A DNA stretch of 64,000 nt from Geosiphon pyriformis uo1 (lineage: Eukaryota; Fungi; Glomeromycota). Below, piece by piece: positions 17,336-62,800 of this stretch (positions are counted from its first letter, which is position 1; each line of letters opens with the position of its first letter). A model generated the notes under the pieces. That model made no database searches. It saw only the letters and a list, made by a program, of their open reading frames with translations, and was not told where the DNA came from. The stretch spans positions 558,001 to 622,000 of the forward strand of contig JAAOMT010000352.1 of assembly GCA_016748015.1 (NCBI GenBank). Direction: 5' to 3'. The translations under genes were made by a program, and so were the position numbers.

Positions 17336-17349
17336 TTTGGTGCTTTTTC

Positions 17350-20300: not shown

Positions 20301-22998
20301 TGCTCTCAATAAACTCTACCACTACTCTCATGATGCTAAAATGATTTTTAACTTAGCAATGGCATTAATTAATAGAGCCACCCAAGAAGATGTCTGCCAA
20401 ATAAAAGAAGCTGAATACATTGAGTATATTATAGAATTAGCTGGATTTGATTATGAAGATAAAGCAGAAACCTACCACCAAATTGCAAGTCATATATATC
20501 CAACCAAAGAAGCTTAAATTCAACAATTAAAGCAAATAAACATTCAATTATGGAAAGAATGCATTATGCCTTGTAATAACCAATGGTGTTTAGAATACTA
20601 TGCTTTTAACATTCCCCTACCAAATGAGAATGATGAAAATGAAATCGAATTTAGAGTATCTGAACTGGTAGAAAAACTATCAACCACTCCTATCTACTTT
20701 TTTAAAAATCAACCACCCCTACAACTTAAATATTTTGACAACCATAGTCAAGAGATCAGACCAAAAAAAGCACACAAAATTGATGTTAGATATGATTTAA
20801 AATACTCAGGAAAAGATACTTTGGTTGGAGAACCAAAGTCCTTAACAAAAATTAATCTAAAAATCACTCTTGAAATTTTACCTAGAGCAATAATTCAAAT
20901 TGCATCCAAATTATCATTGGCAAACAAAGAAATTAATTTTAAAAGAAGAGTCATAAATGCAGAATATACTGGAAACATTACCATTATGTTGCAGAATGAA
21001 ACAGACAAATCATTCAGAATTGAACATGCTGAAAAAATTGCCCAAGCAATTTACCTACCCTTAATCAACATTTCGGGTTTACAATCAGTTAACAACAGAG
21101 AACAATTGGGAAAAAGTGAAAGAAAAATGCAAGGTTTTGGTTCAATTGAACAATTTACAGTACCAGTAAACATAGCTCTCAATGCACAGAATGAATTCCA
21201 CCAGATTTTTCAACTTCTTCAACCAATTATCATTTCATTTTTTAAAGAACATCAAGAAATTTACACTTGCTCAAAACCCACCACTACCCAATAAATCTTT
21301 GAATCCAATAAACAAATCTGTTTGAAGCATGAAATCTCAATCCCAAATGTTTATATTCCCAAAAGAATAAAAAAATTTTGAGTTACATTCTACAACCCCA
21401 ACAATTACCTTATTGTCTTATTAAACAAATTAGAAATTAGAATCATACACAGCAATATCTTCTAAGATAAAAACCCTTAAATTGTCTCTAATTTCATCGA
21501 AATTATAAGACATACACTACTTCTAAATCCAAATATCATTCCTACTACTGAAAACTACTATCTTTTGGAAGAAAAACTTTCTCGAATAAATATGGGTCCC
21601 TTAGAATCCCAACAACAAAGACAATTAAAACAGCTAATAGCTGAATTTGCAAATATATTTGCAAAAAACAACAATGACCTTAGAAAAACTGACATTGTTC
21701 AACACCAGATCCACACAGGAGATGCTCCACCAAAACAACAACAAACTTATCAAGTTCCACCTGCTAGCTACCAATTTATCAGAGAAGAGGTTCAAAGAAT
21801 GCTCAATAACGAATTGATTCAATCATTAAAAAGTTCTTGGGCCTCACCAATAGTTCTTGTTAAAAAGAAAAACAGAAAAATCAAATTCTGTGTAAATTAT
21901 TATCAGCTCAACAGCATCACAATTGGAGATGCTTACCCTTTTTCAAGAATTGATGATATGTTAGATGTTTTAGGAAAAGCCAAGTTCTTTTCAACTTTAG
22001 ACTTGAAAAGTGGATACTAACAAGTCAAAATAGATCCAAAAGATCGACTTAAAACAGCATTTACCACTCAAGGAGAAAACTATGAGTTCAATATTATGCT
22101 TTTTGAACTCTGCAATACACAAACAACATTCCAATGACTCATGGATGTTGTATATGAAGAACTCTTGTGGCAATTAGTAATTGTCTATCTTAATAACACT
22201 AATGTGTATTTACCAAGCTTTGAAGTTCATCTCATTCACTTATGAAAAGTTTTTCAATGATTACAGAAAGCAGGATTAAAGTTGAACATTGAAAAATGTT
22301 ATTTTGGAAAAACAAGTTTAATTTTTCTTGAACACATTGTTAGTAAAGATAGAGTCAAACCAAATTCTGGAACAATCAGTACTGTTAAAAACTTTTAAAC
22401 ACTCAAAAATACCACAGAGCTATAAAAATTTGTAGAATTAGCCTCATATTATCAGAAATTTATCAAAGAATTCTCAGAAATTGCCAAACTACTCAATTAT
22501 TTTACCAACAAAAATGTGCTATACAAATGGACTGAAGAACAACAGAAAACTTCTGAAATCCTCAAAACAAAATTAACAACAGCCCCAGTTTTTGCTTATC
22601 CAGACTTCAACAAATAATTTCAACTAGTTACTGATGCTTTACACATAGCATTTGGTGCCATCTTATCACAATTAGATGAAAATGGCCAAGAACAAGTCAT
22701 TATCTATGCCAATAGAACACTCAAGCCATCAGAACTCAAATATGGTTCAACTGAATTAGAAGCAGCCACAGTCATTTGGACTATTAAACATTTTCAACAA
22801 TACCTAAAAAATGGAAAAGAATTTGACATTATAACTAACAATATTGGCCTCAAATGGCTCAATAAAAAGAAAATAGAGCAAAGTGCCAAACAGTCTCAAT
22901 GGAATGATTTCCTAGCAGACTACAAATATATTATATACCACAAACCAGGAAAACTACACACCAATGTTAATAGTCTCTTAAAAATAAGACAAAATTAA
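17350..22998 (+). pseudogene. Element A polyprotein: Gag - protease - Cys-rich region - dUTPase - RT - RNase H
   Basis: Gag CA (IAKIPEFTGE), CHYCGISGHWKxDC, LILDSGS, dUTPase ~20750-21150, WASPIVLVKKK, LDLKSGY, YLNN (from YLDD), RNase H ending in TAA 22996-22998. Start approximate. Confidence 0.88.
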
Positions 22999-23053
22999 CA
23001 CCACTAACAATTCTACTACAACTTACCACTACCAACAAAACAACAAAACAACA

Positions 23054-24439
23054 ATGGATCCCAGAAATTACAACAATCTTAAAAACTATTTGGAGACTTT
23101 TACCATGTTAAAAAGTTGGTTTTCAAGTGAAAAACATCGATTACAATACCAATTCAAACAATATTTTATACATCACAACAAAATTTATTACAAAAATTGT
23201 AAAAACCCAAACCAATCACTTAGATTAGTACAGAAAAATAAAAAAAAAACAATCCTATACAACATGTACACAGATCTATCTTTAGCACACTTGGGAAGAG
23301 ATGAAACAATCCAAAGAACCCTTGAACATTATTTTTGGCTCTACATGCAAAAAAACATTTGACAATATGTAGAATCTTGTGATAGTTGTTAAAGAAGAGA
23401 AGAAACTTGCCCCACAGAACCTTTAAATCCAATCAAAGTTGGACAACCTTTTAACAAAGTTGGAATTAATTTAGTCGAACCATTACTTATCACAACCCAA
23501 GGAAATTGTTATATTGCAGTTGCAGTAGATTATCTTACCAAATGGCCTGAAGCTAGAGTCATCCAAAGAGCAGATGCAAAATCAGTAGCAAATTTTATCT
23601 ATAAAGACATTATTTGTAGACATGAATGCTCAATTGAACTCTTATCAGATCAAGAAACACATTTTGTGAACAACTTAATACAAGAAATTTGTGAACAATT
23701 CAATGTCAAAAGATTTTTATCATTATCTTATTATCTTCAAACAAATGGACTTGTAGAATGTTTCAACAGAACATTGTGTGAATCTTTAGCCAAAGTCTCA
23801 ACAGATTTTGAGCAGGAATGAGATATCTTTATTCCATCAGTGTTACTAGCATACAGAACTCTAAAACAAGATACTATGAAGCACACACTATTTGATCTTA
23901 CTTATGGAAGAACAGCAACATTACCAATTAATTTTACAGTGGAAACATACCCAGTGCAACCAATCAATAAAAAAAACTTTCAAGAAATACTCCAAAGAAA
24001 AGCTTACATACTCCTTAGTACATTGAAAGAAAAAAGACACATAGCAGCCTCTCATATTGAACACTCTCAAGCCTTACAAAAAGAAAAACATGACAACAAA
24101 TTGCCACCAGTTACCAACAAATTTAAAGTTGAAAATAAAGTTCTCCTACACAGAACTAAAACTGAAAAACAATGGAGTGGAAAATTTGAACATAAATGGG
24201 ATGGACCATTTTATATTCACAAAATTCTAGATAATAGATTATACAAGTTAAGACTTAATGACAAAGTACTAGTAAAAGTTGCACATGGAGATAGATTAAA
24301 ACACTATTATTCCAGAAACAATTTTGAACTATTAATTTCACAAATTAGTACACATTTCTCTTTAGTTAATCCTGAAGATATTTTCCGAAATCTAGAACCA
24401 ATAATTATAATAAAACAACAATCAAACTTGAATACTTAA
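23054..24439 (+). pseudogene. Element A integrase, separate ATG-initiated ORF
   Basis: MDPRNY start, zinc-binding H..C-x2-C region, DYLTKWPEA, QTNGLVE, WDGPF (GPY/F) domain; no chromodomain seen. Confidence 0.88.
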
Positions 24440-24600
24440 TTTAACATTTTTATAATAATCTCTTCTAAAATATACAAACATAAAAACAAAAATAGTAAAT
24501 AACTACAAGAAATACTTAAACCCAAAAACAAATAAAAACCCTATACCCAAAAATAATATTCTTTATTTTTTCCTTCTTTATTAATTAGTCAATTTTTATT

Positions 24601-25314
24601 ATAATTATTCCCCAAAATATCTAACAAATATTCCAAAAATTAATGTTAGCTTTGAAAACACTTCCTGACTTATCTATAACGATTAATAGAAGTCAAATTA
24701 ATTACATTCAGAAAGAAATCACAGTTCCAGTAGTAAATAATTCTCAGAACTATTACTTCTATAGAAGAAAAACAAAAGGTCACTCTGAAAATAGGTTACC
24801 AGAACTTTTGAAGCAAGCATTGAAAGAAAATCTTTTAATTGCCCTTATTGACATTCCACCAAGTGCCACAATGCAACAAAAACTTTTACTATTTCTTAAT
24901 AAACAGAACAATGAACATACTCTTATATATAGATATTTTCATATTGGAAAAACACTTTATGAATGAAAACTAGAACTTGAAACAACCAACATTACTCTTG
25001 AGGCTATACAAAAACAAATTCACAATGAATTCAAGACAGCAGCTAGACCAACAAACACTCGTTACAAACTTAGAGCAGTATTTAGACTCTATGATTTATT
25101 CAACACTTGTGAAAATGTCCTACAAAACCTAATACTCTATCCAATGAAGATTCAATACATTGGGAAGCTCACAGAACTGAAATTTCAACAATTTTCAGAC
25201 CAGATCACTTCAATTATTTTGGACCACTATTTTAATATTACAGATAGTGCTTGGACTTTGATGGAGCTCAGTCTTAAGGAAAAGATTATGTTACCAGTAG
25301 AATTTAGCTATTAA
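24601..25314 (+). pseudogene. Element A ORF3, unknown ~237-aa protein overlapping PPT and 3' LTR
   Basis: One frame from ~24601 to TAA 25314 with only two internal stops (TAA ~24622, TGA 24964), both explicable by C>T; homologous to ORF3 of B and C. Confidence 0.75.
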
Positions 25315-26081
25315 TTAGCATAAAATTATCCTCATAATTTCTATTATTAATTAGCATACATTATTATTTATTTTGATTATCAAATATTATTACTCAATCA
25401 ATAATCCGATTTGTACTCTAGAAATTAAGATAATCAAATTACACAATACTCTGAACCATTTAACATAGTCAAAATTTGCCGAAATTAATAGAAAATGGCC
25501 GAAATAATTAATAGTTCAGTAAAATAACTTGTAATTCACTAAAATGTATCTTTAGTTTACCCAAATTGTAGCAAAAAAAAAAGTGCAAGTTCAAAGACTA
25601 GTATTACAGCAAGTTGTATAAAAAAAGAGCTTCTCTTTTCAAGAAAATGTATCTTCTCATAGTACTTTACTATAGTATCTTACTTTAGATATCTTAATTG
25701 AAACAAATTATCTTTTTACAAAATTAAATAAAAATTAAATATTTGAAAACCAAATCTTTTAAATTATTACACTTGAAATTCCCTCAACACAACTAACATT
25801 TTTGAAATTAATTAGCTACCAATTTCAGTAATCTGTTAGTGACTCCAGGCCTGAACAGAAAACGTTTTCTTTGACAGAATTCTATTTCTTTTACATTTCT
25901 TTTATTTTTCTTTCTTTTCTTATCATAATTATTAGGGATAGCCTACAGATGAGATTCTTGTAAAAAAGTTGACTTTCATAGCAAAGTAACTACACATTTT
26001 TTTAGTGAGCTTTTAGACAAGCAATTCTTGGGAAAAAGTTGACATTTACTACAACATAACTACACAAAGTAACTGGCATGG
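25289..26081 (+). repeat. Element A 3' LTR, left part (interrupted by B)
   Basis: Matches the 5' LTR; preceded by PPT aaggaaaaga. Confidence 0.9.
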
Positions 26082-26871
26082 TGTTATTCATAAAAAAAAA
26101 CATATATAGAAAAATAGGAGACCAATAAGTGAATAGTATTTAGCATGTGAGCACATTGCTCAGCAATGTAGAGCAATGTTAGAAATCATGGCACATTGCT
26201 TAAAAAAATCATAGCACATCACTCAAAAATGTGAGCAATCTCATAAAACATCAATTATGTATATATAGCAGTAGTGTCAGAAATAAAAAAAGCAGAATCC
26301 TTCTATTAAAGACCTCCCAGTTTAGATTTCATCTAAACAACCTTCCAATTCACAAATATTAACAAATAATTATTCACTATCTCAATTCACTCTTTACTAT
26401 CAACATGAAGTGTTGATAGTAATTGATACTTAACCATGCTAAAACAATAGCTCTTGATCATAGCTATTGATGGGATACTAACTTGCAATTGCTTTTACTT
26501 GTTCTTTTATTTTCTTTTATTTTTTTTTGTTATTTTCTTTGGTTTTACTAAATTGATTAAGGATTAAGCACTGAGATACAGACATCATAAGAACTGGTAA
26601 AAGATCTGTGAAACAAGAGTAGAACACTTATAGATTTAAGGATAGCTTACTAGGAAAATTACCAGCCACCATGCTGAGAAAAAAATTTGACAGAATTGCA
26701 ATTCTGAGAGGCTACTGAAAACAACTATTAAATCTCTGTTTATTATACAAAAAACTCTGCAACAAATCTTCAGATCAACAAAACCTTCAAATATCAACAC
26801 TAGAATACCAATTAAGTACCAAGTTACAAATTTGTTATTTGATTTGAGATCCCAAATAATCATCTGTAACA
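26082..26871 (+). repeat. Element B 5' LTR
   Basis: TGTTA...GTAACA; direct repeat of 45256-46056. Confidence 0.92.
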
Positions 26872-26873
26872 TT

Positions 26874-29800: not shown

Positions 29801-30204
29801 CGGCAAAGAAAAACAGAAAGAAACCAAACTTATCTGGAATGCTGACCTAGCCTGGAAAAATAACCATAAACAGGATGAGCTACCAACTTGAGAATGGGAA
29901 AAAACCGACAAAGGGAAAGGAAAAAGGAAGAAAGAAGACTTACTTGAAGAAACCACCACCACAAAAGAAATAACTAGTAGTTGGGAAAGAGAGTATTCAA
30001 GGGAACCAATAAAAAAACTATCATACATACCCCTCAAATACAAAGACTGTGAAAAGAAACTTTCTTTCATAAGAGCTTGGGTGGTGCAAACAAAGACTAC
30101 TGGACATAAACACATTATTACTATAAGCTGTGCCATAGAAAATGATATGGGTACCCAAAATGTCAAGGAAAATGGGACAATGAACCATGTCTCACTTGTG
30201 GTGA
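26876..30204 (+). pseudogene. Element B Gag - protease - start of Cys-rich region
   Basis: PIAKLEKFTDEKD (Gag CA), CHYCGKQG knuckle, LILDS protease; cut at CLTCG by element C. Confidence 0.85.
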
Positions 30205-30973
30205 TGTTACAGATAATTACTTAGGGTCTCAAGACAAATAACAAACCCATAACTTGGTGCTCAATTGATATAATGCTGTTAGTAAAATCTGAAGGTGTGT
30301 TTTTCTGAAGATTTTGGTTGAGTCCTTTGTATAATGGACAGAGATTCAGTGGTAATAGCTTTTATCCATAGCTTCCCAAAACCACAGTTTTGTCAATTTT
30401 TTTCTCAGCTTGATGGCTGGTATTCCTCCTGGTAAGATATTCTCAATTGAGTATCCTACCCTTATTTCTGGGTCTTTTATCAGTGCTATATTCTGATGTC
30501 AGTACCCCACGCATTAATCCTCAATAGAGTTAGTAATAACAACAATTAAGACAAAAAAATAAAAGAAATGACATAAAGTAATGAGCCAAGGCAATGCACA
30601 AATTAGTATTTGTCAATAGCTGTGATCAAGAGCTATTGTTCCAGTGTAATTAAGTATTAATTGCTATCAACATGGAATGTTGATAATGAAAAGTGGATTT
30701 GGATGGTAAATAATTTATTTATTCAATATTTGTAAAATAGGAGATTTCTAACTAAAGGATTTTTTTTTTCTACTTTTAATGCTACTGCTATATATACATA
30801 ATTGATATTCTATGAGATTGCTCACATTTCCAAGCAATGTGTTATGATTTCTTGAACAATATGCCATAATTTCTGATATTGTTTCATATTGCTGAACAAT
30901 GTGCTCATGTGCTAAATACTATTTTCTTATTGGTCTGCTATTTTTTCTATCTGTTTTCTTTTTATGAGTAATA
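30205..30973 (-). repeat. Element C 3' LTR (769 bp)
   Basis: Direct repeat of 39325-40194, with fewer U3 tandem units. Confidence 0.92.
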
Positions 30974-31599
30974 TTATCTTCTCCTTTTAATATTGAGCTC
31001 TGTCAAAATCTTCATCTTGAATTAATTCTAATACTTCTTTTTCAAGTATTGTTTGTTCGATTCTGTTTTTTATGTCTTCTACTTGTGTATTGTTTATTCT
31101 TCCTCATTGGTTAATAGATATGGTTTCCATGTCAGAGTGTAACAGTATTTCTGGATAGTTCTGAAATATGTTGTCTAGTTAATAAATTGTTCTTACATGT
31201 AGTGTCAAGTTTATCTTTTTCCCAATAAATTTTTCAATTTGCTGTATTATGTTTTGGTTAAATACTTTCTTGGATTTGTCAATATACAACTCCTGAATAT
31301 TCAACTTTCGACCTAATTGGTAGTAACAGTATAATATTAGAAGTTGCTCTGTCCATTGCTTCCAATTCTCTTTTGTAAGTTCTTCTATTGGTGCCATAAT
31401 ATGTATTTTTCTAAAAATGTTCTTTACTTTTTCAATTATAATATCTGACCAGTTTTTATTATTCTTTGGTAAACACTGATATGGTGTATTCTTTGTCTTT
31501 TTTTTGGTTGTTAACAATAGTTTCCAGGTCTAAAGGTTGTTGACTTAAGGCCTGGAATAATTGTTAAGTTATGGTGTGAATATGATTTGGTATTTCCAT
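30925..31599 (-). pseudogene. Element C ORF3 (unknown)
   Basis: ATG at 31599 (MEIPNHIHT); near-identical to B ORF3 apart from a short deletion. End approximate. Confidence 0.75.
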
Positions 31600-31660
31600 T
31601 TTTCTTGGTTGCTTTTGTCGTGTATACTGTGTCTTTTATATACTCTTTTATTGTTTAATT

Positions 31661-33036
31661 TTATGTGTTTGGTCCAATGATTATGATTGGTTCCAGATCT
31701 CGTAAAATCTCATTTGGTTGAACTAGTATTCATTGTACTCCTAATTGTGGAATATTATTGGTGGATGATGATGCTATTTGGTAATATGGTTTCAGTCAAT
31801 TACCATGTGCTGCTTGGTTAAAATTTTGTTGTTCCATCTTAGTTTATAAGCTTCATTTCCAATAATTTCTTCAATGTGGAATGGTTCATCTTATTTGAGG
31901 TCAAATTTTCTATTCCATTGTTTTTCCGCTTTAGTATAATGTAAAAGTACTTTGTCTCCAATCTTGAATTCAACTGGTTTGTCTGGTAGTTGGTTATCAT
32001 GTCTCTCTTTTTGTTTCTCTTGTGACTTTTAGATGTTATCAGCTGCTTTTCATTACTTGTTTTCTAGAGTTTCTATCAAGTCATATGTTCTTCTTAGCAA
32101 TGTTTCTTGAAAATTGTCTTTAGTTATTGGTTTTGTTGGATAAGTGTTGACTTCTATCTTGACTAGTAATGTTGCTGTTCTATTGTATACTAATTCAAAT
32201 AGTGTTGCTTGTGTAGTGTCATGCTTTATTGTCTAATAAGCAAATAGTACTGATGGTATAAACAAATCCCATTCATTTTGATTCTTTTGACTGATTTTGG
32301 CAATTGCTTCACACAATGTTCTGTTAAACCTTTTGACTAGTCCATTTGTTTGTGGATGATATGGTGATGATAGTAGTCTTTTTATCCCAAATCTCTGACT
32401 TAATTCTGTTAATGTTCTATTTACAAAATGAGTTTTTTGATCTAATAGTAGTTTTTTTGGACATCCATGTTGACATATTAAATCTTGATGGACAAATTCA
32501 GCAACAGATTCTGCATCTGCTCTTTGAATAGCTTTTGCTTCTGGTCATTTAGTGAGATAATCCATAGTTACTGCAATATATCTGTTGCTCTTACTGGTGA
32601 TTATTAATGGTCTGACTAAGTCAATTCTAATGTGATCAAATGGTTGTCCCACTTTGATTGGTCTTAATGGTTCACTTGGTCTTGTTCCTCCTCTTCTTTG
32701 ACAAATATCACAATTTTGAACATATTAGATGATGTCTAAATACATTGATGGCCAATAATATCTTTTTCTGGTTCTTTTTATGGTCTCTTCTTTATGAAAA
32801 TGTTCTGCTGTTAGATCTGAGTGCATGTTGAATAATACTGTTTCTTTCTCTGGTTCTGTGATTACTCTAATTGGTTGATCTGGATTTCTTCTGTTCTTCT
32901 AGTAAAGTATATTTTGATGATTGATAAAATATTTTGATTGTTGTTTTATGTTGTTTTGTTTCTTTTGAGATAATTTCTCCTTGAACAATTGATTATTTAT
33001 ATAATACTAGAGTTGTTGGTATTTTTGTGTGTTCAT
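31661..33036 (-). pseudogene. Element C integrase, separate ORF
   Basis: ATG at 33036 (MNTQKY), downstream of the RNase H stop at 33067-33069; colinear with the B integrase. Confidence 0.87.
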
Positions 33037-33066
33037 CTTTTGTTATATTTTTGTGTTGAAATGTTT

Positions 33067-36000
33067 TTAGATTTGTTTCATTCATGACAGTTCATCGGCA
33101 TTTCCATTGTCTTTTCCCTTTTTATAATGTATTGTATAATTAAATGATGAAGGTTCTATTTTCCATCTGGCATGGCAATTGTCTGCAAATTCTTGTTTCT
33201 GGATTGAAGTCAATCCTTTGTGATCAGTGTACACTTCAAACTTTTGACTCAAGTATTCCTTTCATTTAATAACAGTCCAATAGATAGCTAAGTGTTCTAG
33301 TGCTAGAGTTTTATAGTTCTTCTCAGCTGGACTTAAGCTTCTATTGGCATAAGCTACTGGATGTTTTCTCTCATTTGATCCTTTCTGTGATAGTACTGCT
33401 CCCAATGCTTCACCTGATGCATCAGTGGTAATTATGAATGATTTGCTGTGATCTGGATACATCAATACTGGAGCTTGGATAAGCTTTTTTCTTAATGTGT
33501 CAAATGCTTCTTGTTGAGCTTTGGTCCATTTATACTTCACATTCTTGGTCTGTAGATGGTAAAGTGGCTGAGCCAGTTTTGAAAAGTCTTTGATAAAATG
33601 GCAATAATATCCTGTGAATCTCAAGAATGCTCTTAATTCTGTGAGATTGTTTGGTACTGGAAAGTTCTTGACAACTTCAATCTTGTCTGGATTCATTTTG
33701 ATTCTATCATTGCTTACTACATGTCCCAAAAACTTGAGTTCAGTTTTTTCAAAGAAACATTTGGTTGTGTTTAGTTTCAATTCTGTTCTTCTCAATCTTT
33801 CAAACACTTGTTGGAGATGATGCAAATGATCATCAAATGTTTTTGAGAACACATTGGTGTCATCTAAGTATACAACTACTGATTTCTATAGTAACCCAGT
33901 ATAGATGATTTTCATGAGTCATTAGAATGTTGCTAGAGCATTCATCAAGCCAAATGGCATAACTTCAAACTCAAAATTTCCTTCTTTTGTGGTGAATGCT
34001 GTTTTTTCTTTGTTGGCTGGGTACATGGCTACTTGCCAGTAACCATTATCCAAATCTAGTGTTGAGAATCATTTATTTCCTCCAAAAGCATCGAATAGTT
34101 CTTGGATCTTTGGAGTTGGATAGCTATCACTTTTTGTTACTCCATTCAGTTTTTGGTAGTCTACACAAAAATGGATTTTTCCATTTTTCTTACAGACCAG
34201 TACTACTGGTGATAACCATAGACTCATTGATGGCTAAATTAGCCTATTGTCAAGCATTCAGTTAATTTCTTGACAAATAATCTCATGGCTAGCTGGTGGT
34301 ACTCTGAATGCTCTTTGTTTTATTGGCATTGCATCTCCAGTTTTGATTTGATGCTGGATGATATTGGTTTGGCCAAATTCATTTTCGCTGGTAAAGATGT
34401 CATTGAAGTTGTTGAGTAATATTTTGAGTTGTATCTGTTGAAGTGAATCCAGATTCTCCATGTTCATTTGTTCTAATTGTTCTGGTTGGAGCAAATAACA
34501 TTCACTTCTTCTATAGATGGTTTGTGATGTAATATCCACATATCCGCAAAGCTGTGGAAAATCTGGAATGTGGTTTGGTGGTTGATTTTCAACTTTGGTG
34601 GTTAAATACCCAATGATGGTTTCCTTTGGTATTTTGATAACATTTTTGGTTGTGTTGTAAATGGGGATTTTGATATTTTTGGGGCTTTTGGCTGATATGT
34701 AGAGATTAGTGAGTCCAATTTCTCTGAATTCGCAAATAGTGGCTTCTGCTTTAAACAACTGAGCCTGATTTTTTACTTTTCTTTTTATGGCTAATCTATA
34801 CTGGCCATATGATGGAATAAAAATTGTTTGACAGATTGAGATAATTTCTTCTTTGCCAACAATTTCTTCCTCTGCCATATTAACTGGTATATTTATTCTA
34901 TCTGTTGATCCAAATCTCTGTATTCCTTTAGCTGTAATCCCTAATTCTTCCCTGTTTCTCACTGATACTAACTGAGCTATTTTGACCAGAGACAGGAATA
35001 TTGTCTGCACTATCTTTTCATTTGGCTCTATTACATAGGCCTTTTCTGAATTGTTTTGTAGCATAGCAATAATATTTTCCACATATTCTGCATCAATTAT
35101 TTCTCCTTTGATGTTAATTCCTCTTTTTGCTAGACTACTCCTAGATGCTAGTTGAACCATTATGGTTGCTGGAATTTCCAGTGCTATCTTCAGATCAATG
35201 CAAATGCGTGAATGTAGTTCCAATTTGATGGCATTTTTTTCAGGAAATCTCAAATCAAACCCTACATCAGTATTATGTGCATGCTCTGGCATGATATTTT
35301 TGCCATTATCACTAAACTATTTAAGTTCCTGTTCCTTAGTGAAGTTAGGAAGTGCGATGAATGTTTCAGGATTTGAATCGGAGTTTAAATCATCATAAAT
35401 TTTGTTACTATTCAGAGTGGAGCTAAAACTGTTGTTTTCATTATTGTTATTGTCAGAGTTTGAATTGGAATTGAAAGTTAATTCCGATTCTGATGTGCAG
35501 TTGCTTATTGGTTTATCTTCTTCTGGGATTGTGTAGATCATGTGTGGTAGTGGATTGTAAATGAGGTCACACTCATTACAATATTAAAAGTCACAGGAGA
35601 TTAAGCAATGTTGACATAATCGAGTGTTTAACTGCTCTAAATGCTGCTCCTGTTCTTCCCTAGTAGGTGCCAAATACTGGTAATGTTCATGAAATTCTTT
35701 TGGATTGTTTTCAATGTTGCCAAAAATGTCAAAAGTTTGGACGTATTCGGGTTTAAGAAGAGATAAAGAGTTGTTTTTGATCTCTAGTATTTTGCTGGTT
35801 GTCACACCTTTTGCTTTTACATATGCCATTCTCCATAGTTCATTTTTGTCATGAGGATATCCTTCCAATTGTCACAATACTCATTTTCAGGTGTTGTTGA
35901 TTGGTGTTTCTTTGCTTACCTAATTGTTTATTAGTATGATGTATTGGCATGTCTCATCGCATGTTTTTCCATGCCCAGGGATGTCATTCCACATTCCTTT

Positions 36001-39000
36001 GTCAGATAGGATAGTTCTACATATGAGACATGGTTGGTTATTCCACTTTTCTTGTCGTTTTGGTTATCCAAAATGCTCTATAACACATGGGCGGCAGTAA
36101 AATCTTGTGGCCATGAAGTATTCCTTGTTGTCGCCACAGCATGCGCCTATTGACGACAATTTCTTGCCACAATCAATGCATTCCAATTTTGGTTGACAAT
36201 AATTGGATGGTGGTGATGAAGTATAAGCATATGAACTATAAATACTGCTGGGGAGAGTAGTTCTTTCTTCTTTTTTTTTTTTTCTCTTATCAATTTCTTT
36301 CCACTTCTAGTTTGCTGGTTTGTTTTGGTTGTTATCAGTTTCTCAGTTTTGGTTAGTATTCCAGATAAGTTCTTTGTTTTCCTTCCTTTTTCCCTTGTTA
36401 TTCCAAGAAAATATTGGTGGTAGCTTATTGTGGTCTTTGTTGGCTCAAGAGACTTGGTACACTTCCCAAGTAGATTTCTCTTTTTCTTCTTTGAATTTGA
36501 TGAAGAGAGCTGATGGTGTGATGATGGGTTTGAAATAACCACACATGGCTGGTACACATGTGTGTCATCCGTTCTGACTAAGCTGGAGCTCTTGGGTGTT
36601 CCAATCAAGTATTGCATTGATTTTGAACAGCCAGTCATTACTTACCAGTGTTTAGTATTAAGTAGCTTCTATGACTAATACCTTGATTGGTATAGTGATG
36701 CCATTGATTTTTATGGACAAGTTATCTATTTTACCAATTGGAGTTTTGGTGGCTCCATTAGTGGTAATTATCCTTGTACTGACAGCTCAATCAACTTGGC
36801 AACCTAATTGGTTCATAAGCTGTCTTGTAATAATACTATCAACTGATCCACTATCTAGGATCAGTTTGATAAACTGATCATCAATTTTGCCATCCATGTA
36901 CATCACCATGATAGATTTTTCCTCAAGTGCAGCTCCACTAAACAAAGGAGTTTCTGTCAGTTCCTCGATTTCGAAAGGAAATATAACTGCTAGAGACTTG
37001 TCTTCCATGACAGTGGCTGGCAGAATATTGGTAAGTGATTGCTTTCATTTGGATTTCCGAGTGTTGGTTGAGGCGTTTTCTGAGATAGCCAGAAGACTTA
37101 AATAGTTCTGAGAACTCGGGTTTTGAGTATACCTGGTTTCTGTACTTCTTTGTCATAATCTTGACAGCTGGTTGAATGAATTGGGGATTGGTTAGTGAAC
37201 AACTATCACTGATCTCCAGTTTTGGGTAACTCTCAATCTAGAGTTTTCTGATGTCATTTGAGCTGGGTTTGATGGCAGTGTTTGAACTGTGGGTGTTTGA
37301 TAAATTATTTGTGGCTGTGGTGGTTGATATATTATTAGTGGCTGCAGTTAATAAACTAGAGGTTGATATATGGGTGGTTGATATATTGGCTTTTGCATTA
37401 TTGGCAGGTAAGTTGGTTGATATGGGGCTGGATTGGATTGATAACTCAGAGTTGGGAACTGGCAATCGGAGTTTTGATATTGATTTCCTGATTGTTGGTT
37501 ACTATAAGCATGGCAATTGGCTCTAAGGTAACCTTGTTTACCACAGTTGTGGCAAATTTGCATTTCTTAATGCCACAGCTAATTTGTTAATGATAATAGA
37601 CATAACTGATTTTGGAAACAATTTGTGTTTCCCTGATTATTACATCATTGAGAAGGCTAATAAATTGGGTGATTGTCAGCTAAGTATCCCTCCAATTTCT
37701 GATTAATTGAATCACTGAATTGTTTCAGTTTGGAATCTAATTCAGATGACCCATTCATTACTAGATTAATGGCTTGGACGTGATTGGCCTCTGACTCAGC
37801 TGATTCGAAATCTCTGGTGCATGTGACTGTATCTTGAAGGGTGCCTGGATGCAACAGATGTACATGTTGCAAGATACTGCTGCACAGACCACAGATAAAC
37901 TGGTTGAGGATCTGTGGTGCTGTGAAATATTTGGCATCAATTGCTTGAATTTGGCATAAGTTTCTATGGAAGTGTTCTAAGTAAGTGGTAACTGCTTCAG
38001 TTTCTCCTTGTTTGATTGTGGTGAAGGTGTTGGTTAAGTAATTAATGCTGTTATTATTACTGAAATATCCCAAAAATGCAGTTTTGAATTCCTGGAATGT
38101 TTGAGGTTTAACGTCTAAACTCTGATACCACAAGTCAGCAGTATCTTGTAGAAAATAGAGAATCACTTGAAGGGCTCTGTCATTGTTCCATCCATTGGCT
38201 GTGATGGCTTTTTCCATATTGTTAAGCCATACTTGGGCATCGTCCTCTTCACTGGTAAATTTCTTAATTTTGGCGATTGGAGCATAAGCCATTGGTTGTT
38301 GTTGTAGTTGCTGCTGGTTTTGTTAAGGTAGCTGTTGTGGCTGTTGTTGTTGTTTAGTGTTTGGTGGAGCTGGTGGTGGATTAATCACAATTACTGGAGG
38401 TAAGTGTTGTTAATTATTAATGTCAGGGTTTTGATCATTCTAATTGTGCTGTGTTTGAAAATTCAGAGTTTCAATTTCCAGTTTTTCTAGATTTAGATGT
38501 TTCAGAGTTTGAACATTTGGGGTTTTAAATTTCAGGTTTTCTGGGATCGGATTTTGGTAAGTAAATTCCTGGTTCTCAAATTTTTTTTTCTTTTCTTCTT
38601 GTTCTCTTTCCAATTCTGTGACTTCCCAAGGACTCATGGTTCCGAAATCTGGTTGAGATGGCAGTAATCAAAATTCTGATGGTGTTGGCAATCATGATTT
38701 AAATTCTTCAAAATATGTGCCATATAGTCCTAATAAGTCTTTTTTCATTTGTTTACTTTGAAATGGAAATTGTCCAAATGTTGATGTCACGTTTGATATA
38801 GACATGCCTGCTACTGCGATATTGATGGCACCTCCAAGAGTATAATGATATGATGGATTTGTAGGTGATTCAATTCTGTGTTTCTTCCAAGTGGATGGTT
38901 GGATACATTAGAGTGTTACTGCTGGTGTTTGTAGTTTTCCTTTGTCTTTACTTGTGTAGGTGATTGGGTATCTCTGTTGTGTGTAATGTTTAATTTCTTT

Positions 39001-39290
39001 ATTAATCTCAGTGATGATGGATGCAAAATTATAGTTTGTTGGTAAGCTGCTGTTTTGGATTAATTTGTTGTAAAAAGTTTCCCTTGCTGATTCGGTATTT
39101 GTTGCTGTTCCTAATAAGTAGGCAATTCTCTCATTGATGTAAAAGTTGAAGGCTGATTCTACTGATATGTGATTCAGGATTAATTCCAAGTGTTAACAGT
39201 AGTATTGAAATAAGAATTTCGCAAATCCTAAATAGTTTGCTCCTATATTTTCTGATTCTGCCACTGTTGATTTATTTGTTGGTGCTGGTT
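33067..39290 (-). pseudogene. Element C polyprotein Gag-PR-Cys-rich-dUTPase-RT-RNase H
   Basis: MAYAPIAKIKKF (Gag), CHNCGKQG, LILDSGS, dUTPase 34900-35292 (GFDL, RSS, IDAEY, IVQ, FGST), YLDD, TDAS. Confidence 0.9.
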
Positions 39291-39324
39291 CTCTGTAAGA
39301 TTATATCTCACAAGAAGCACCAAA

Positions 39325-40194
39325 TATTACAGATAATTACTTGGGGTCTCAAGGCAAATAACAAACCCGTAATTTGGTGCTCAATTAATATAATGCTGTT
39401 AGTAAGATCTGAAGATGTGTTTTTCTGAAGGTTTTGGTTGAGTTTTTTGTATAATGAACAGAGATTCAGTGATAATAGCTTTTATTTATAGCTTCTCGAA
39501 ACTGCAATTTCATCAATTTCTTTCTTAGCTTGATGGCCGGTATTCCTTCTGGTAAGATATTCTCAATTGAGTGTCCTACTTTTATTTCTGGGTCTTTTAC
39601 CAGTGCTATATTCTGACATCAGTACCCCGTGCATTAATCCTCAATAGAGTTAGTAATAACAACAATTAAGACAAGAAAATAAAAGAAATGACATAAAGTA
39701 ATGAGCCAAGACAATACACAAGTTAGTATTCATCAATAGCTGTGATCAAGAGCTATTGTTCCAGTGTGATTAAGTATCAATTGCTATCAACATGGAATGT
39801 TGATAGTGAAAAATGGATTTGGATGGTAAATAATTTATTTATTCAATATTTGTAAAATGGGAGATTTCTAACTAAAAAATTTTTCTTTTTCTACTTTTAA
39901 TGCTACTGCTATATATACATAATTGATGTTTTATGAAATCGCTCACATTTCCAAGTGATGTGCTATGATTTTTTGAGGAATACTCACATTGCTGAGCGAT
40001 GTGCTCTAATTTTCTAACATTGCTTCACATTGCTAAGCAATGTGCTATGTTTTCTGACATTGTTCCACCTTACTGAGCAATATGCCATAATTTCTGACAT
40101 TGCTCCATATTGCTGAGCAATGTGCTCACATGCTAAATACTATTTTTTTATTAGTCTGCTATTTTCTCTATCTGTTTTCTTTTTATGAGTAATA
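39325..40194 (-). repeat. Element C 5' LTR (870 bp) with ~40-bp tandem palindromic units
   Basis: Units start at 39985, 40026, 40066, 40106 with core CACATTGCTGAGCAATGTG. Confidence 0.92.
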
Positions 40195-43139
40195 GCAAAC
40201 AGTTGCTTGATAAAAGAATGTGGAATGACATTCCTGGGCAAAAAGAAATGTACAATGCTTTATGCCAATAGATGATCCTTATCAGCAACTGAGTGAGTTG
40301 TAAAATGCCTATTACTGCAGCCTGGCACCAAGTAATTAATCACTTGAACAGATATCCACATGATGAGGATGAGATCTGGCATATAGCCAATACCAAAATC
40401 GAAGGAGCCATGCCCAGCAAAATCTTAGAAATCAAAAACAATCCACCAAAACCAGTTGACATTATCTTTATCCCAAATTTGGATGCATTTCTTGACATAG
40501 AGACAGGCCCAGAGGAATTTCATGAGCACTACCAGAATTTGGCACTCACTAGAGAAGAGTAAAAACAATGCTTGGAAGAAATAAACACCCAATTATGTGA
40601 CTACTATTTAATTCTATATGACTTCCAGTATTGTAATGAGTGTGATTTTATTTACAATTCACCATCATGCATAATCTACATGATTCCAGAAAAAAAACCA
40701 ATCAACAGCTGTACATCAGAATCGGAATCAAGTTTCAATCCCAATTTAAACTCCGACAACAATGATGAAGAAAATAACAGTTCTAGCTTCACTCAAATTG
40801 GCAACAAAAATATCAACAATTCAGACTCTGATTCAAACCCCGAAATATACATTGCACTTTCTGATCTTTCCAAGAAGCAGGAACTTAAATGGTATAGTGA
40901 CAATAATGAAAATATTATGCCAAAATGTGCACATGATACCAATACAGAGTTTGATCTAAGATATCCAAGAAAAAAAGTCATCAAATTGGAACCAAATTTG
41001 TGCACATATGTTGATTTCAAAATAGCTCTGGAGATTCCAGCAACAACCATGATTTAATTAGCATCTAGAAGTAGTTTAGCAAAAAAAAGAATCAACATTA
41101 GAAGAGGAATAATTAATGCGGAATATGTAGAAAATATTATTATTATGCTACAAAATGACTCAGAAAAAGCCTATATTATAGAGGCAAATGAAAAGATAGC
41201 ACAGGCAATATTCTTATCTCTGGTGAAAATAGCTCAGTTAGTTTTAGTAGAAAAAAGGAAAAAACTAGGTATTACAGTAAGAAGAAAACAGGAATTTGAA
41301 TCAATAAGTAGAATAGATATACCAGTTAATATAACAGAGGAAGAAATTATTGACAGAAAAATTATCTCAACCCATCAATCAATTTCCATTCCACCATATG
41401 ACCAGTATATATTAGCCATAAAAAGAGAAGTAAAAGATCAAGCTCAGTTGTTTGAAGCAGAAGCCACTATTTGTGAATCAGGAGAGATTGGACTCACTAA
41501 TCTCTACATATTAGCCAAAAGCCCAAAAAACATCAAAATTCTCATCTACAATACAATGAGAAGAGTCATTAAAATACCAAAAAGAACCATCATTGGATAT
41601 TTAACCACAGAAGTTGAGGATCAACAGCCAAACCACATTCTAGATTTTCCACAGCTGTGTGAATATGTGGACATCACATCACAAATCATTTACAGACAAA
41701 GCAAATCTTATCTGCTCTAATCAGAACAATTGGAACAAATGAACCTGGAAAATCTAGACCCACTTTAACAGATGCAACTAAAAATGTTACTTAACAATTT
41801 TAATGACATCTTTGCTAGCAAAAACAAATTTGGCAGAACCAACATTATCCAGCATCAGATCAAGACTGGAGATGTAATGCCAATCAAACAGAGAGCATAC
41901 AGGATACCACCAGCTAGCCATGAAATTATTTGTCAAGAAATCAATCAGATGCTTGACAACAGGTTAATTCAGCCATCAATAAGTCTATGGTCATTACCAG
42001 TGGTACTAATCCAGAAGAAGAATGAAAAGATCTGCTTTTGTATAGACTACTGAAAACTGAATGGAGTAACCAAAGGAGATAGCTACCCAACTCCAAAGAT
42101 TCAAAAATTGTTTGACGCTTTTGGCAGAATGAAATGGTTTTCAACTTTGGACTTAGACAGTGGTTACTGGCAAGTAGCCATGAAGTCGGAAGATAAAGAG
42201 AAAATGGCTTTCACAACACAAGAAGGGAATTTTGAATCCGAAGTAATGTCATTTGGCTTAATGAATGCTCCAGCCACATTTCAATGACTTATGGAAATTG
42301 TCTATACTGAACTGCTATGAAAATCAGTAGTCATATACTTGGATAATACCAATGTGTTCTCAAAAACATTCGATGATTATCTACATCATCTCCAACAAGT
42401 CTTTGAAAGACTTAGAAGAGCAGGATTGAAACTAAATACAACTAAGTGTTTCTTTGGAAAAACTGAACTCAAGTTTTTGGAACATGTTGTAAGCAAAGAT
42501 GGTATCAAAATGGATCCAAATAAGATTGCAATAGTAAAGAACTTTCTAGTACCAACCAATCTGACAGAACTAAGAGCATTTTTGGAATTCACAGACTACT
42601 ATTGTCGTTTTATCAAGAACTTTTCTAAACTGGCTCAGCCACTTTATCATTTACAAACTAAGAATGTTAAGTATGAATAGACAGAAGCTCAACAAAAAGC
42701 ATTCAACATACTGAGACAAAAGCTTATTTAAGCTTTAGTATTAATGTATTCAAATCACAGCAAACCATTTATCATCACCACCAATGCATTAGGCCAAGCA
42801 TTAGGAGCCGTACTATTACAAAAAGGACCAGATAAAAGAAAACATCTAGTAGCTTATACCAGTAGAAGCTTAAGCCCAGCTGAAAAGAACTATAAAACTT
42901 TAGCACTAAGACACTTAGCAATCTATTGGGCTGTCACCAAATAAAAAGAATACTTGAGCCAAAAGTTTGATGTGTATACTAACCACAAAGGATTGATTTC
43001 AATTCAGAAGCAAAAATTTGGAGATAATTGTCATGCAAGATAGAAAATAGCACTATTACCATATACATTTACAGTATATTATAAAAAGAGAAAAGACAAT
43101 AGAAATGCCAACAGTTTGTTGTGAATGAGACAAATCTAA
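40195..43139 (+). pseudogene. Element B Cys-rich region - dUTPase - RT - RNase H
   Basis: Continues CLTCGEQLLD across C; dUTPase ~40918-41310; LDLDSGYWQ, YLDN; stop TAA 43137-39. Confidence 0.88.
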
Positions 43140-43169
43140 AAACATTTCAACCCAAAAATATAACAAAAG

Positions 43170-44546
43170 ATGAACACACAAAATTACAAACAACTCTAAT
43201 ATTATATAAATACCCAATTGTTCAAGGAGAAATTATCTTAAAAAGAACAAAACAACATAAAACAGCAATCAAAATATTTTATCAATCATCAAAATATACT
43301 TTACTGAAAAAACAGAAGAAATCCAAATCAACCAACCAAAGTAATTACAGAATCAAAAAAAGAGACAATATTGTTTAACATGCACTCAGATCCAACAGCA
43401 AAACATTTTCATAAAGAAACAACAATAGAAAAAACCAAAAAAAGATATTATTGGCCATTAATATATCCAGACATTATCTAATATGTTCAAAATTGTGATG
43501 CTTGTTAAAGAAAAAGAGGAATAAGACCAAGTGAATCATTGAGACCAATTAAAGTAAGACAACTATTTAATCAAATTGAAATTGACTTAGTTGAACTATT
43601 AACAATCACTAGCAGAGACAACAGATATATTACAATAGCCATGGATTATTTTACTAAATGGCCAGAAGCAAAAGCCATTCAAAGAGCAGATGCAGAATCC
43701 ATTGCCAAATTCATCCATTAAGACTTGATTTGTCAACATGGATGTCCAAAAAAACTACTATCTGATCAAGAAACTCATTTTGTGAATAGAACATTGACAG
43801 AATTAAGTTAAAGATTTGGAATAAAAAGACCATTATCATCACCATATCATCCACAAACCAATGGACTAGTTGAAAAATTCAATAAAACATTGTGTGAAGC
43901 AATTGCCAAAATCAGTCAAGAAAACCAAGACAAATGAAATTTGTTTATATCATCAGTATTATTTGCTTATCGGACAATGAAACAAGATACTACACAAGCA
44001 ACACTATTTGAATTAGTATATAGTAGAACAGCAACATTACCAATTGAGATAGAGGTCAATACATATCCAACTAAACCAATAACAGAAGCTAATTTCCAAA
44101 AAACATTGTTGAGAAGAACATATGACTTAATGGAAACACTAGAAAACAGATGACAAAAAGCAGCTGATAATATCCAAAAGTCTTAAGAAAAGCAAAAAAA
44201 AAGACACAATAACCAGTTATCAGATAAACCAGTTGAATTCAAGATTGGAGACAAAGTACTTCTACATTGTACCAAAGTGGAAAAACAATGGAATAAAAAA
44301 TTCGACCCCAAATGAAACAAACCATTTCACATAGAAGAAATTCTTAAAAATAGAGCTTATAAATTAAGATGGGACAACAAAATTTTAGCCAAAGCAGCAC
44401 ATGATAATTGTCTAAAACCATATTACCAAATAGCATCATCATCTACCAATAACATTTCACAATTAGGAGTACAATGAATACTAGTTTAACCAGATAAGAT
44501 TTCACAAGATCTGGAACCAATCATAATCATTGGACCAAACATGTAA
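43170..44546 (+). pseudogene. Element B integrase, separate ORF
   Basis: MNTQNY start; MDYFTKWPEA, YHPQTNGLVE; ends LEPIIIIGPNM*. Confidence 0.87.
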
Positions 44547-44606
44547 AATTAAACAATAAAAGAGTATATAAAGACACAGTATACATAACAAAAGTAACCA
44601 AAAAAA

Positions 44607-45302
44607 ATGGAAATACCAGATCATATTCACACCATAACTCAACAATTATTCCAGATCTTAAGTCAACAATTTTTAGACATAGAAATTATTGTTAACAACC
44701 AAATAATTTGTTATCAAAACACCAAAAGAAAGACAAAAAATACACCATATTAGTGGTTACCAAAGAATGATAAAAACTGGTCAAATAACATAATAGAAAA
44801 AGTGAAGAACACTTTTGGAAAAATACCTATTATGGCACCAACAGAAGAACTTACAAAAAAGAATTGGAAGCAATGAACAAAACAACTTCCAATATCTTAC
44901 TGCTATTACCAATTAGGTCAAAAGTTGAATATTCAAGAGTTGTATATCAACAAATCCAAGAGAATATTTAACCAAAACATAATACAGCAAATTGAAGAAT
45001 TTATTGGAAAGAAGACAAACTCAACACTACATGTTAGAACAATTTACCGACTGCACAACATATTTCAGAACTATCCAGAAATATTGTTACACTTCAACAT
45101 GGAAACCATAACCATTAACCAATAGAGAAGAATAAACAATAGACAAGTAGAAGACGTAAAAAATAGAGTCGAACAAACAATACTAGAAAAAGAAGTATTA
45201 GAGCTAATTCAAAATAAGATTTTGATAGAGCTCAATATTAAAAAGGAGAAGATAATGTTACTTATAAAAAGAAACAGATATAGGAAAATAGGAGACCAAT
45301 AA
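44607..45302 (+). pseudogene. Element B ORF3, unknown ~231-aa protein overlapping PPT and 3' LTR
   Basis: ATG 44607, one frame to TAA 45302, three internal stops explicable by transitions. Confidence 0.78.
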
Positions 45303-60649: not shown

Positions 60650-62800
60650 TATTATAAATAATTATTTGGAATGTTAAAACAAATAACAAATCTGTAACTT
60701 GGTGCTTAATAACTGATAATATTGGTAATTTCTGAAAATTTTGGAATCTAAAGGTTTTGGTTAAGTTTTTTGTATAATAGACAAAGATTTAATTAATAAT
60801 TTCTTCTGTTAATTTCTTTTTTCAATATAGTGGCTGATTTATTTTGGCAGTTGTGCCCTTCTGATAAGTTATTCTTAAATTTCTACTCTTGTTCTTAGAT
60901 TTTTTACCAGACTATTTTTGATATTAATTACTTAGTATTTAATTTTTTTAATTAATTAGTAAACAACAAAAAAATAAAATAAAAAAAAATAAAAATAAGA
61001 AAAAAAATAAAAATTTAGTATTTTATCAATAGCTATAATCAAAAGCTATTGGTCTAATATAATTAAATATTAGATTTTATTAATATAAAATATTAATAAT
61101 AGAAAAAAAATTAATATTTTTAATCAAACAACAATAACATAGATTGGATAATAATTAGATATTTTATTAATATTGATGGATTTCCACTTTAAGTTATAGA
61201 AAACTATTTTTTAAAGGAAGGAATATTGTGATTCTAAACTCTATTAAATTCTGAATATTTTTCTGCTTTTAATACTCTTACTATATATACATAATTTGTG
61301 TTATACAAGATTTCTGAGAATTCTGCAATTTTCCAAAAGAATTTTGGAATTCTAAAATTCTGCAATTTTCTAAAAAAATTCTGCAATTCTGTAATTTTGC
61401 AATTTTCTAAAAAAATTCTGAAATTTCTTATTTTACTATGTTTATTTCTAATTGGTTATTTTATTTATTATTATAATTCTTAATTTCTATGAATAAAATT
61501 ATTCATTTCTTTTAATATTGAGCTCTATCAAAATTTCTTAAATCTTTTATATCTCTTTTTTGGATTAGTTTTATTACTTTTTTCTTGAAAATTACTTGGA
61601 CAATATTGGTTTGTAATTTTTCAAATTAAATATTGGTAATTTTTCTCAATTGGTTGATGGTTACTATGTTTATTATTAAATATAGCAGTATTTTTGAACA
61701 GTTTTGAAACTCTGTTTATAACCAGTATATTGTTTATACCTGTGTAAATAAATTGTTTTTTTCCATAAATTGTTCTAGTTGTTGTAATATTGTTGTATTA
61801 AATATTCATTTTATTTTATTTATATATAAGTTCTAAATATTGAGTTTTTGTCTCAAATTATAATAGCAAAGTTTTTTAAAAATTGTTGTCTTTACTATTT
61901 TTAATTTTCTTTTATTAATTTCTTGTATAGTACTATTGTCTTTGGTGTTTCTATAGATATTTTTACTTTTGCTATTATATTCTCTACTATATTTTTATAT
62001 TTTCTGTATATCTTATATTGTACTTCATATTAAAATTTCTGTTTTTTTTCTGTATATTAAATAATTTGTTAATTAATTGTAATTTTTATGTTCAGTTTTT
62101 GATGTTTAATCAGTTGAAATAGTTGTTAGACTAGTAAGTAAATATTGTCAATAATTTCTATTTTTCTCTTTGTTTTTGATATATATATTGGTTTTTTTTA
62201 TATATTGTTCTTGTAAGTTAATTTGATGTGTTTGTGTTAATAATTATGATTGGTTCTAAATCTTATAAAATCTTATTTGGTTGGACTAATATTTGTTGTA
62301 TTTCTAATTGTGAAATATTATTAATAAATAATAATACTATGTTGTTATATAATTTTAATCAATTTCTATGTACTGTTTTAACTAAGATTTTGTTGTCCTA
62401 TTTTAATTTATAAGCTCTATTTTCTATAATTTCTTTAATATAAAAGAGTTTGTCCTATTTGGGGTCAAATTTTTTATTTTATTGTTATTCTACTTTAATA
62501 TAATATAAAAATACTTTGTCTTCAATCTTGAATTTAACTAGTTTATCTGGTAATTGGTTATTATGTTATTCTTTTTGTTTTTTTTGTGACTTTTGAATGT
62601 TATTAGCTGCTTTTTGCCTTTTGTATTTTAATGTTTTTATTAAGTTATATTTTCTTTTTAGTAATGTTTTTTGGAAGTTGACTTCTGTTATTGGTTTTAT
62701 TAGATATGTATTGATATTTATTTCAACTGGTAATGTTGCTGTTCTATCATAAACAAACTCAAATAATATTGCTTATATAGTATCTTGCTTTATTGTCCAA
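60650..62800 (-). mobile_element. Decayed element E: 3' LTR (60650-61498), ORF3 and integrase C-terminus
   Basis: Colinear with C 30205-32240; U3 repeats resemble solo LTR D. Confidence 0.78.

What the first reader, a model, noticed from the sequence alone, without database searches (positions are those of the whole stretch)
44607..45302. ORF3: conserved non-env accessory gene reading through the PPT into the 3' LTR
A (24601-25314), B and C (31599-~30925) encode ~230-aa proteins with no evident signal peptide or TM helix. A and B are diverged but share motifs: YRYFHIGKTL/YCYYQLGQKL, RAVFRLYDLF/RTIYRLHNIF and C-terminal ELSLKEKIML/ELNIKKEKIML. Both cross the PPT and end inside U3, like lentiviral nef. 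Retention across families suggests selection. Hypothesis: a helical DNA-binding transactivator or anti-silencing factor.
Basis: partly seen in the sequence, partly recalled or inferred. Interest (0 to 1): 0.75.

Follow-up and report, generated by a model that had tools for sequence, protein, structure and literature searches.

The report
Orphan third gene in fungal retrotransposons
Many Gypsy-type jumping genes of a Geosiphon-like fungus carry an extra gene of an unnamed protein family just before their right-hand terminal repeat; it likely helps the element by binding its own DNA or RNA, but this copy is broken and only reaches into the repeat through a one-base loss.

Summary
The extra gene is real; the nef-like detail is mostly wrong for this copy. 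Four decayed Ty3/Gypsy elements in the window (A, B, C, D) carry one 210-240 aa ORF between integrase and the PPT. Relatives are abundant in Geosiphon pyriformis proteins (205 hits for A) and occur at the same site in a soil-type metagenome element. About ten lineages at 17-37% identity keep the frame, the length and a shared core, which points to selection. Copy B has three stops and a 1-nt loss; intact relatives of B, and copies C and D, stop just before the PPT. Only the A lineage reads through, 6-10 codons into the LTR. The shared 'C-terminal motif' is a conserved PPT-flank DNA motif read in two frames. No TM helix, no family match. A confident model (pLDDT 80.6) gives a helical core with a conserved basic helix and no fold match at Z≥5; a weak likeness to DUF1016_N/ParB-type domains is inconclusive. 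Best guess: a soluble nucleic-acid-binding regulator of the element (about 40%). Integrase is also a free-standing ORF. No description found in eight literature searches.

The parts
44607..45241 (+). ORF3 of element B, broken copy (three stops, 1-nt loss near 45215); family stop at 45239-45241, just before the PPT
45242..45302 (+).
45228..45260 (+). Conserved DNA motif GAGCTC + polypurine tract (about 45240-45255) + LTR start TGTTA, shared with A, C, D and L001
45256..46056 (+). 3' LTR of B (90% identical to the 5' LTR; 75 transitions, 4 transversions)
26082..26871 (+). 5' LTR of B, followed by a PBS-like stretch
44565..44571 (+). TATATAA 42 nt before the ORF3 start; also in C and D, not in A; possible internal promoter
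43170..44478 (+). Integrase of B as a free-standing ORF with its own ATG, 30 nt after the RNase H stop; SH3-type end, broken
40917..43139 (+). dUTPase, RT and RNase H of B, broken; stop at 43137-43139
24601..25314 (+). ORF3 of element A (eroded start, two stops); reads through the PPT into the 3' LTR that starts at 25289
30987..31599 (-). ORF3 of element C (nested in B); 23-nt gap, three stops; ends before the PPT
61512..62161 (-). ORF3 of element D, heavily decayed; ends before the PPT
30204..40194 (-). Element C, a sister of B, nested inside B
16367..26080 (+). Element A, distant family with the same gene order

Best explanation
These fungal Gypsy elements carry a third, conserved, non-envelope gene between integrase and the polypurine tract, whose soluble helical product likely binds the element's own DNA or RNA in the nucleus and likely raises or protects its expression. 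Shown: position, family breadth, frame conservation, no TM helix, no known family. Predicted: a small N-terminal helix-hairpin part, a flexible and usually basic linker, and a helical core whose helix at residues 146-160 carries a basic stripe after a G-K-T-N-like turn. Inferred: the gene is a downstream cistron with its own ATG, so it would need its own short transcript (a TATA box sits about 42 nt upstream in the B clade) or splicing; the protein would act in trans on the LTR or internal promoters, as a transactivator or shield against silencing. The window copies are dead relics. Odds: real selected accessory gene about 0.9; nucleic-acid-binding regulator about 0.4.
For: 205 hits to A, the 120 listed all named Geosiphon pyriformis; 66 cluster representatives, including unnamed environmental ones. 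L001 holds RT-RNase H, integrase, an open 230-aa ORF3, PPT and LTR in the same order. Transversion pN/pS in frame 0.29 (B/C, p 0.033) and 0.48 (B/D, p 0.002); off-frame 0.62-1.74; LTR control 1.13-1.67. Model pLDDT 80.6, pTM 0.66. Basic residues at positions 147, 149, 151, 155 in 6, 7, 8, 10 of 11 lineage representatives; the core has more K+R than D+E in 10 of 11. The conserved columns hold no D/E/H/C catalytic or metal set. Weak, convergent hints: DUF1016_N in 7 of 28 members, best E 0.015; hhalign P 7e-4 against reversed controls 0.10 and 0.17; three ParB-family DNA-binding domains among the top 50 of 48,161 chains (Spo0J Z 4.2, rmsd 5.3, 92 aligned; KorB Z 3.6, rmsd 5.1, 96; ParB Z 3.2, rmsd 3.1, 59).
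Against: Every hint at function is below threshold: no chain reached Z 5; 1 of 60 block shuffles reached the DUF1016_N score; a ParB HTH profile did not align (P 0.3-0.66); DUF1016_N matched only 1 of 34 members of the wider alignment. Whole-protein pI runs from 4.9 to 9.7, with several intact relatives acidic; the linker is acidic in P0190 and P0196. A stricter four-fold-site test was not significant for ORF3 (p 0.15 and 0.56) but was for integrase; the A/L001 DNA comparison is saturated (0.90, p 0.36). ORF3 is far less constrained than integrase (42% against 64% amino-acid identity, B/D). The TATA box is absent in A, and B, C, D are kin.
Confidence: 0.4

Rival explanations
1. ORF3 is a partner of the free-standing integrase: a separately made tether that brings the integration complex to chromatin or into the nucleus, in the place that a chromodomain fills in chromoviruses.
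For: It follows integrase directly; the integrase ends at an SH3-type domain with no chromodomain match; integrase is itself a separate ORF in 4 of 4 elements examined; a basic helix fits DNA or nucleosome contact.
Against: No fold or family link to known targeting domains. ORF3 diverges much faster than integrase. Binding to integrase was not tested.
Confidence: 0.2
2. ORF3 is an RNA-handling factor like Rev or CERV: it binds element RNA and governs export, splicing or translation of the several cistrons (gag-pol, integrase, ORF3).
For: The element has at least two downstream cistrons that need special expression. A precedent exists in Cer1 (PMC10309623, abstract). A basic helix and basic linker fit RNA binding.
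Against: No arginine-rich motif common to all lineages; no fold match to an RNA-binding protein at Z≥5.
Confidence: 0.2
3. ORF3 is a host-directed antagonist that binds a fungal silencing or restriction protein rather than nucleic acid; its fast change reflects an arms race.
For: Fast divergence with a kept fold; strong loss of CpG in the elements (observed/expected 0.07-0.22 against 0.97 in the host STT3 gene) shows heavy methylation-type pressure.
Against: No sign of positive selection was tested; conserved basic positions fit nucleic acid better.
Confidence: 0.12
4. ORF3 is an env-like or cell-to-cell movement protein.
For: It sits at the env position in sense orientation.
Against: No hydrophobic segment (highest 1.34); no match in Pfam or among predicted viral structures at E≤0.001.
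Confidence: 0.05
5. The frame is a neutral passenger kept open by chance or by cis constraints.
For: All four window copies are broken; the four-fold test is not significant; the end motif is cis DNA.
Against: Homologous frames with start, length and core motifs across about ten lineages at 17-37% identity; in-frame pN/pS below 1; a confident fold from the alignment.
Confidence: 0.03

Closest known systems
Sense additional ORFs between pol and the 3' LTR of Ty3/Gypsy elements (aORF-3S, 'env-like'; PMC7264820, parts 1-2 of 3 read)
   Same: Position, orientation, presence in most copies of a family, unknown origin.
   Different: No TM segment; fungal host; a protein family with no Pfam, PHROG or PDB match above threshold; found across many element families.
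Grande gene23 and related antisense aORFs (PMC7264820)
   Same: Accessory gene in the 3' internal region, proposed regulator; gene23 is nuclear and has its own promoter.
   Different: ORF3 is in sense orientation; location and promoter are untested here; sequence likeness to gene23 was not tested.
CERV of C. elegans Cer1 (PMC10309623, abstract and outline only)
   Same: Non-env accessory protein of a Gypsy element that controls its expression.
   Different: CERV comes from a spliced mRNA and exports genomic RNA; no homology shown here.
Lentiviral nef (recalled)
   Same: In the A lineage the frame crosses the PPT into U3.
   Different: The overlap is only 6-10 codons and absent in the B clade; no Gly at position 2; no fold match listed.
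DUF1016_N (PF17761) and ParB/KorB-type helical DNA-binding domains
   Same: Y-x-x-I-G-x-x-L helix followed by two helices with a turn and a basic helix.
   Different: Scores are below every threshold; the ParB profile does not align; ORF3 has an extra N-terminal part and no nuclease or CTPase domain.

Membership tests
Ty3/Gypsy LTR retrotransposon (carrier) | Paired LTRs and PPT | tested here: met
   LTR pairs 90-92% identical in A, B, C; purine tract before TGTTA
Ty3/Gypsy LTR retrotransposon (carrier) | Gag, then RT-RNase H, then integrase | tested here: met
   Retrotrans_gag, Ty3_capsid, RT_RNaseH_2, SH3_Tf2-1 (the last below its cut-off); order
Ty3/Gypsy LTR retrotransposon (carrier) | Integrase as part of the Pol polyprotein | tested here: not met
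   Stop after RNase H and a new ATG 24-55 nt later in A, B, C, L001; readthrough or splicing not excluded
Ty3/Gypsy LTR retrotransposon (carrier) | RT phylogeny inside Metaviridae | not tested
   No RT tree was built
Additional ORF (aORF-3S) class | Sense ORF between pol and the 3' LTR in most copies | tested here: met
   4 of 4 window elements whose 3' end was examined, and L001
Additional ORF (aORF-3S) class | Transcribed and translated | not testable with these tools
   No RNA holder listed
env / env-like | Signal peptide and TM helix | tested here: not met
   Highest hydropathy 0.27-1.34 in 13 proteins; no dedicated signal-peptide predictor was run
env / env-like | Fusion-protein fold or family match | tested here: inconclusive
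   None listed
nef-like U3-overlapping gene | Coding region extends well into U3 in intact members | tested here: not met
   B clade stops before the PPT; A lineage enters by 6-10 codons
nef-like U3-overlapping gene | Gly2 myristoylation site (recalled feature) | tested here: not met
   Full-length starts read MEI, MTI, MII, MSI, MEQ
DUF1016_N / ParB-type HTH | Profile match above threshold | tested here: inconclusive
   Best Pfam E 0.015; hhalign probability 27%, 1 of 60 shuffles as high; ParB profile no match
DUF1016_N / ParB-type HTH | Shared fold | tested here: inconclusive
   Z 3.2-4.2, tied with unrelated helical proteins
DUF1016_N / ParB-type HTH | DNA binding | not testable with these tools
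   Needs a binding assay

The most novel reading that the evidence does not exclude
A fungal Gypsy lineage has a multi-cistron layout (gag-PR-dUTPase-RT-RH, free-standing integrase, ORF3) and encodes its own sequence-specific DNA-binding regulator, of a new fold or a remote bacterial ParB/DUF1016-type origin, that activates or unsilences its LTRs and helped these elements fill about 40% of the Geosiphon genome.
Probability: 0.2. Interest if true: 0.8.

Novelty: new variant of a known kind. Interest (0 to 1): 0.5.

Why it matters
Accessory genes of LTR retrotransposons are mostly known from plants and animals, and few have a function. This is an old, unnamed family in early-diverging fungi, carried by many element families in a genome where LTR elements cover 41.2% (PMC11952901, passage seen). 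It gives a concrete candidate for how the elements sustained that expansion under strong CpG loss. It also explains a few hundred 'hypothetical proteins' of the Geosiphon annotation as transposon genes, and offers intact natural copies and a confident model for direct tests.

Tried and rejected
No whole genome is held, so genome-wide dN/dS and a search for domesticated copies were not possible. Pfam: nothing for A or B; only weak scattered rows for alignments. PHROGs: best E 1.4e-4 to phrog_23683, unknown function, A lineage only. PDB by sequence: best E 0.73, then none. First model pLDDT 53, uninformative. Second model: Foldseek PDB and viral no match at E≤0.001, VIA none at Z≥5; the N-terminal part was barely tested and could not be folded alone. 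ESM Atlas gave no result. Viral contigs: no relative. Phage records: one chance row, E 9. 301 bacterial genomes: 1 weak row, E 0.007 with a stop. DUF3102 could not be compared: 0 of 39 genomes held it. Homodimer job: no answer, score 0.02, alignment not used. No RNA holder listed. Runs X2 and X3 laid nothing. No tRNA genes. Earlier-finding look-ups by sequence and place were blank. Eight literature searches showed no paper on this ORF; the library lacks most subscription journals, no supplements were read, and curated repeat libraries may hold these elements.

Full report
Setting. The window is AT-rich fungal DNA with one host gene (STT3-like by my reading of the ORFs at 52148-54618; name recalled) amid nested transposons. 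All 125 listed hits of the two single-sequence searches are named Geosiphon pyriformis, so the window likely comes from that fungus or a close relative. No whole genome is held. Self-comparison gives element A (LTRs 16367-17174 and 25289-26080), element B (26082-26871 and 45256-46056), C nested in B on the minus strand (30204-40194) and a fragment D (62802-60650). Pfam finds Gag, dUTPase, RNase H and a weak SH3-type integrase end; the order is RT-RH-IN. LTR pairs are 90-92% identical, with 62-75 transitions against 1-4 transversions; CpG observed/expected is 0.07-0.22 in the element against 0.97 in the host gene. These are dead, deaminated Ty3/Gypsy copies.

The observation. The frame at 44607 starts with ATG 128 nt after the integrase stop and holds three stops. 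A has ATA at 24601 and two stops; C has a 23-nt gap and three stops; D has 12 stops. A family profile finds exactly these four places in the six frames of the window. In-frame stops are few: 3 against 18 and 10 off-frame in B, 2 against 15 and 26 in A. A and B are homologous beyond chance.

The PPT claim. Intact relatives of B end ...GAQY, with the stop at 45239-45241, right before the purine tract. B lacks one base near 45215, and contigs of run X1 break off at 45215-45216 with the extra base, though the gap table of that call lists nothing. The A lineage does read through: of 120 listed hits, 49 end in a PVEF type, 41 in a PDEIRDII type, 2 otherwise in that frame, 28 are truncated or fused. 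L001 reads through as well. Both groups share the DNA motif GAGCTC-purine tract-TGTTA but read it in different frames, and the tree splits the GAQY-ending group from the rest with support 100/99 (20 rows, long branches flagged). The C-terminal 'motif' is therefore cis DNA, and the overlap with U3 is short and lineage-specific.

Breadth and selection. The search with A gave 205 proteins, with B five. A profile against 1.84 billion representatives gave 66 at E≤0.001. Of 20 that I looked up, 16 are Geosiphon and 4 are unnamed environmental records; a wider alignment added six more environmental ones. About ten lineages at 17-37% identity to P0157 keep a length of about 210-275 aa and the core motifs. 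Genomic context is shown only for the window copies and L001, where RT-RH, integrase (one stop), an open ORF3, PPT and LTR follow in order; it is unknown for P0152, P0190 and P0194. Transversion pN/pS in frame is 0.29 (B/C) and 0.48 (B/D), against 0.62-1.74 off-frame, 1.13-1.67 in the LTR and 0.09-0.20 in integrase. A stricter four-fold test had too few sites and was not significant for ORF3. Selection is thus well supported by depth of conservation, moderately by codon counts, and is weaker than on integrase.

The protein. No TM segment. With 34 rows AlphaFold2 gives P0157 pLDDT 80.6: helix plus hairpin (7-38), a disordered linker (40-51), then a helical core (82-221). Foldseek and VIA find nothing clear. 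Conserved columns are mostly structural (Y102, G108, L111, N145, A152, R155, F160, G181, T184), with no catalytic or metal-binding set. The helix at 146-160 has basic residues at 147, 149, 151 and 155 in 6, 7, 8 and 10 of 11 representatives. Three weak lines point at ParB-type helical DNA-binding domains: DUF1016_N in 7 of 28 A-heavy rows, three ParB-family rows at Z 3.2-4.2, and hhalign P 7e-4 to a DUF1016_N alignment built here. Against this, 1 of 60 block shuffles scored as high, a ParB profile did not align, and only 1 of 34 wider members hit DUF1016_N. The link is a lead only.

How it likely works. ORF3 has its own ATG behind an AT-rich spacer, so it needs a separate or spliced transcript (inferred). 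TATATAA lies about 42-51 nt upstream in B, C and D but not in A; the motif TATATAAW occurs 57 times in 128 kb, and the three are kin. Integrase also starts at its own ATG 24-55 nt after an RNase H stop in A, B, C and L001, so these elements must express at least two downstream cistrons. I take a soluble nucleic-acid-binding regulator of the element's own expression as most likely (0.4), ahead of an integrase tether (0.2), an RNA export or processing factor (0.2), a host-protein antagonist (0.12), env-like (0.05) and passenger (0.03).

Known context. Sense and antisense extra ORFs between pol and the 3' LTR are known, mostly in plants; maize Grande gene23 is nuclear with its own promoter (PMC7264820, parts 1-2 of 3 read). 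CERV exports Cer1 RNA (PMC10309623, abstract and outline). LTR elements cover 41.2% of G. pyriformis (PMC11952901, passages). PMC11728184 and PMC9881135 were seen as passages only and add nothing specific. Eight searches showed no paper on this ORF; supplements and repeat libraries were not seen and may hold it. Two earlier notes of this scan describe orphan genes near or inside LTRs of fungal Gypsy elements in other genomes; I could not test whether they are the same family. Nef features are recalled, not from a call.

Verdict. A real, unnamed accessory gene family of fungal Gypsy elements: a new variant of a known kind. The read-through is an artefact in this copy and minor in the A lineage. 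Function is open. Interest 0.5.

Noticed in passing
window 43137-43170, 22996-23054, about 33065-33036 (minus); L001 772-799: A stop ends RNase H and integrase starts at its own ATG 24-55 nt later in four of four elements from two deep lineages: integrase looks like a free-standing gene.
   Followed up: partly
window 34258-35292 (minus), 40917-41945, 20566-21294: A dUTPase domain lies before RT in elements A, B and C (Pfam E 5.7e-17 for C, 6.2e-13 for A).
   Followed up: partly
window 26871-26890 and 39324-39305 (minus): PBS-like stretch after the 5' LTRs of B and C; from recall it resembles the 3' end of a tRNA-Ile. Not tested.
   Followed up: no
window 39928-40130 and 45316-45420: Tandem 40-41 nt repeats in U3 of the B/C LTRs, with differing copy numbers; candidate binding sites for a regulator such as ORF3.
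   Followed up: no
window 5689-12262, 14004-16058, 46061-49591 (minus): Decayed LINE-like elements with endonuclease, RT and RNase H-like frames; A and B appear inserted into one of them.
   Followed up: no
window 48136-48934, 58066-60090, 56918-57636: A solo-LTR-like copy and two further decayed Gypsy fragments (gag on plus, integrase on minus) with no ORF3 match.
   Followed up: no
window 52148-54618 (minus): Host gene resembling oligosaccharyltransferase STT3 (name recalled), with CpG intact, unlike the surrounding elements.
   Followed up: no
L031 (G002:C472:7388-7789, minus): One bacterial frame matches both DUF1016_N and, weakly, HTH_ParB, in line with the two being related.
   Followed up: partly
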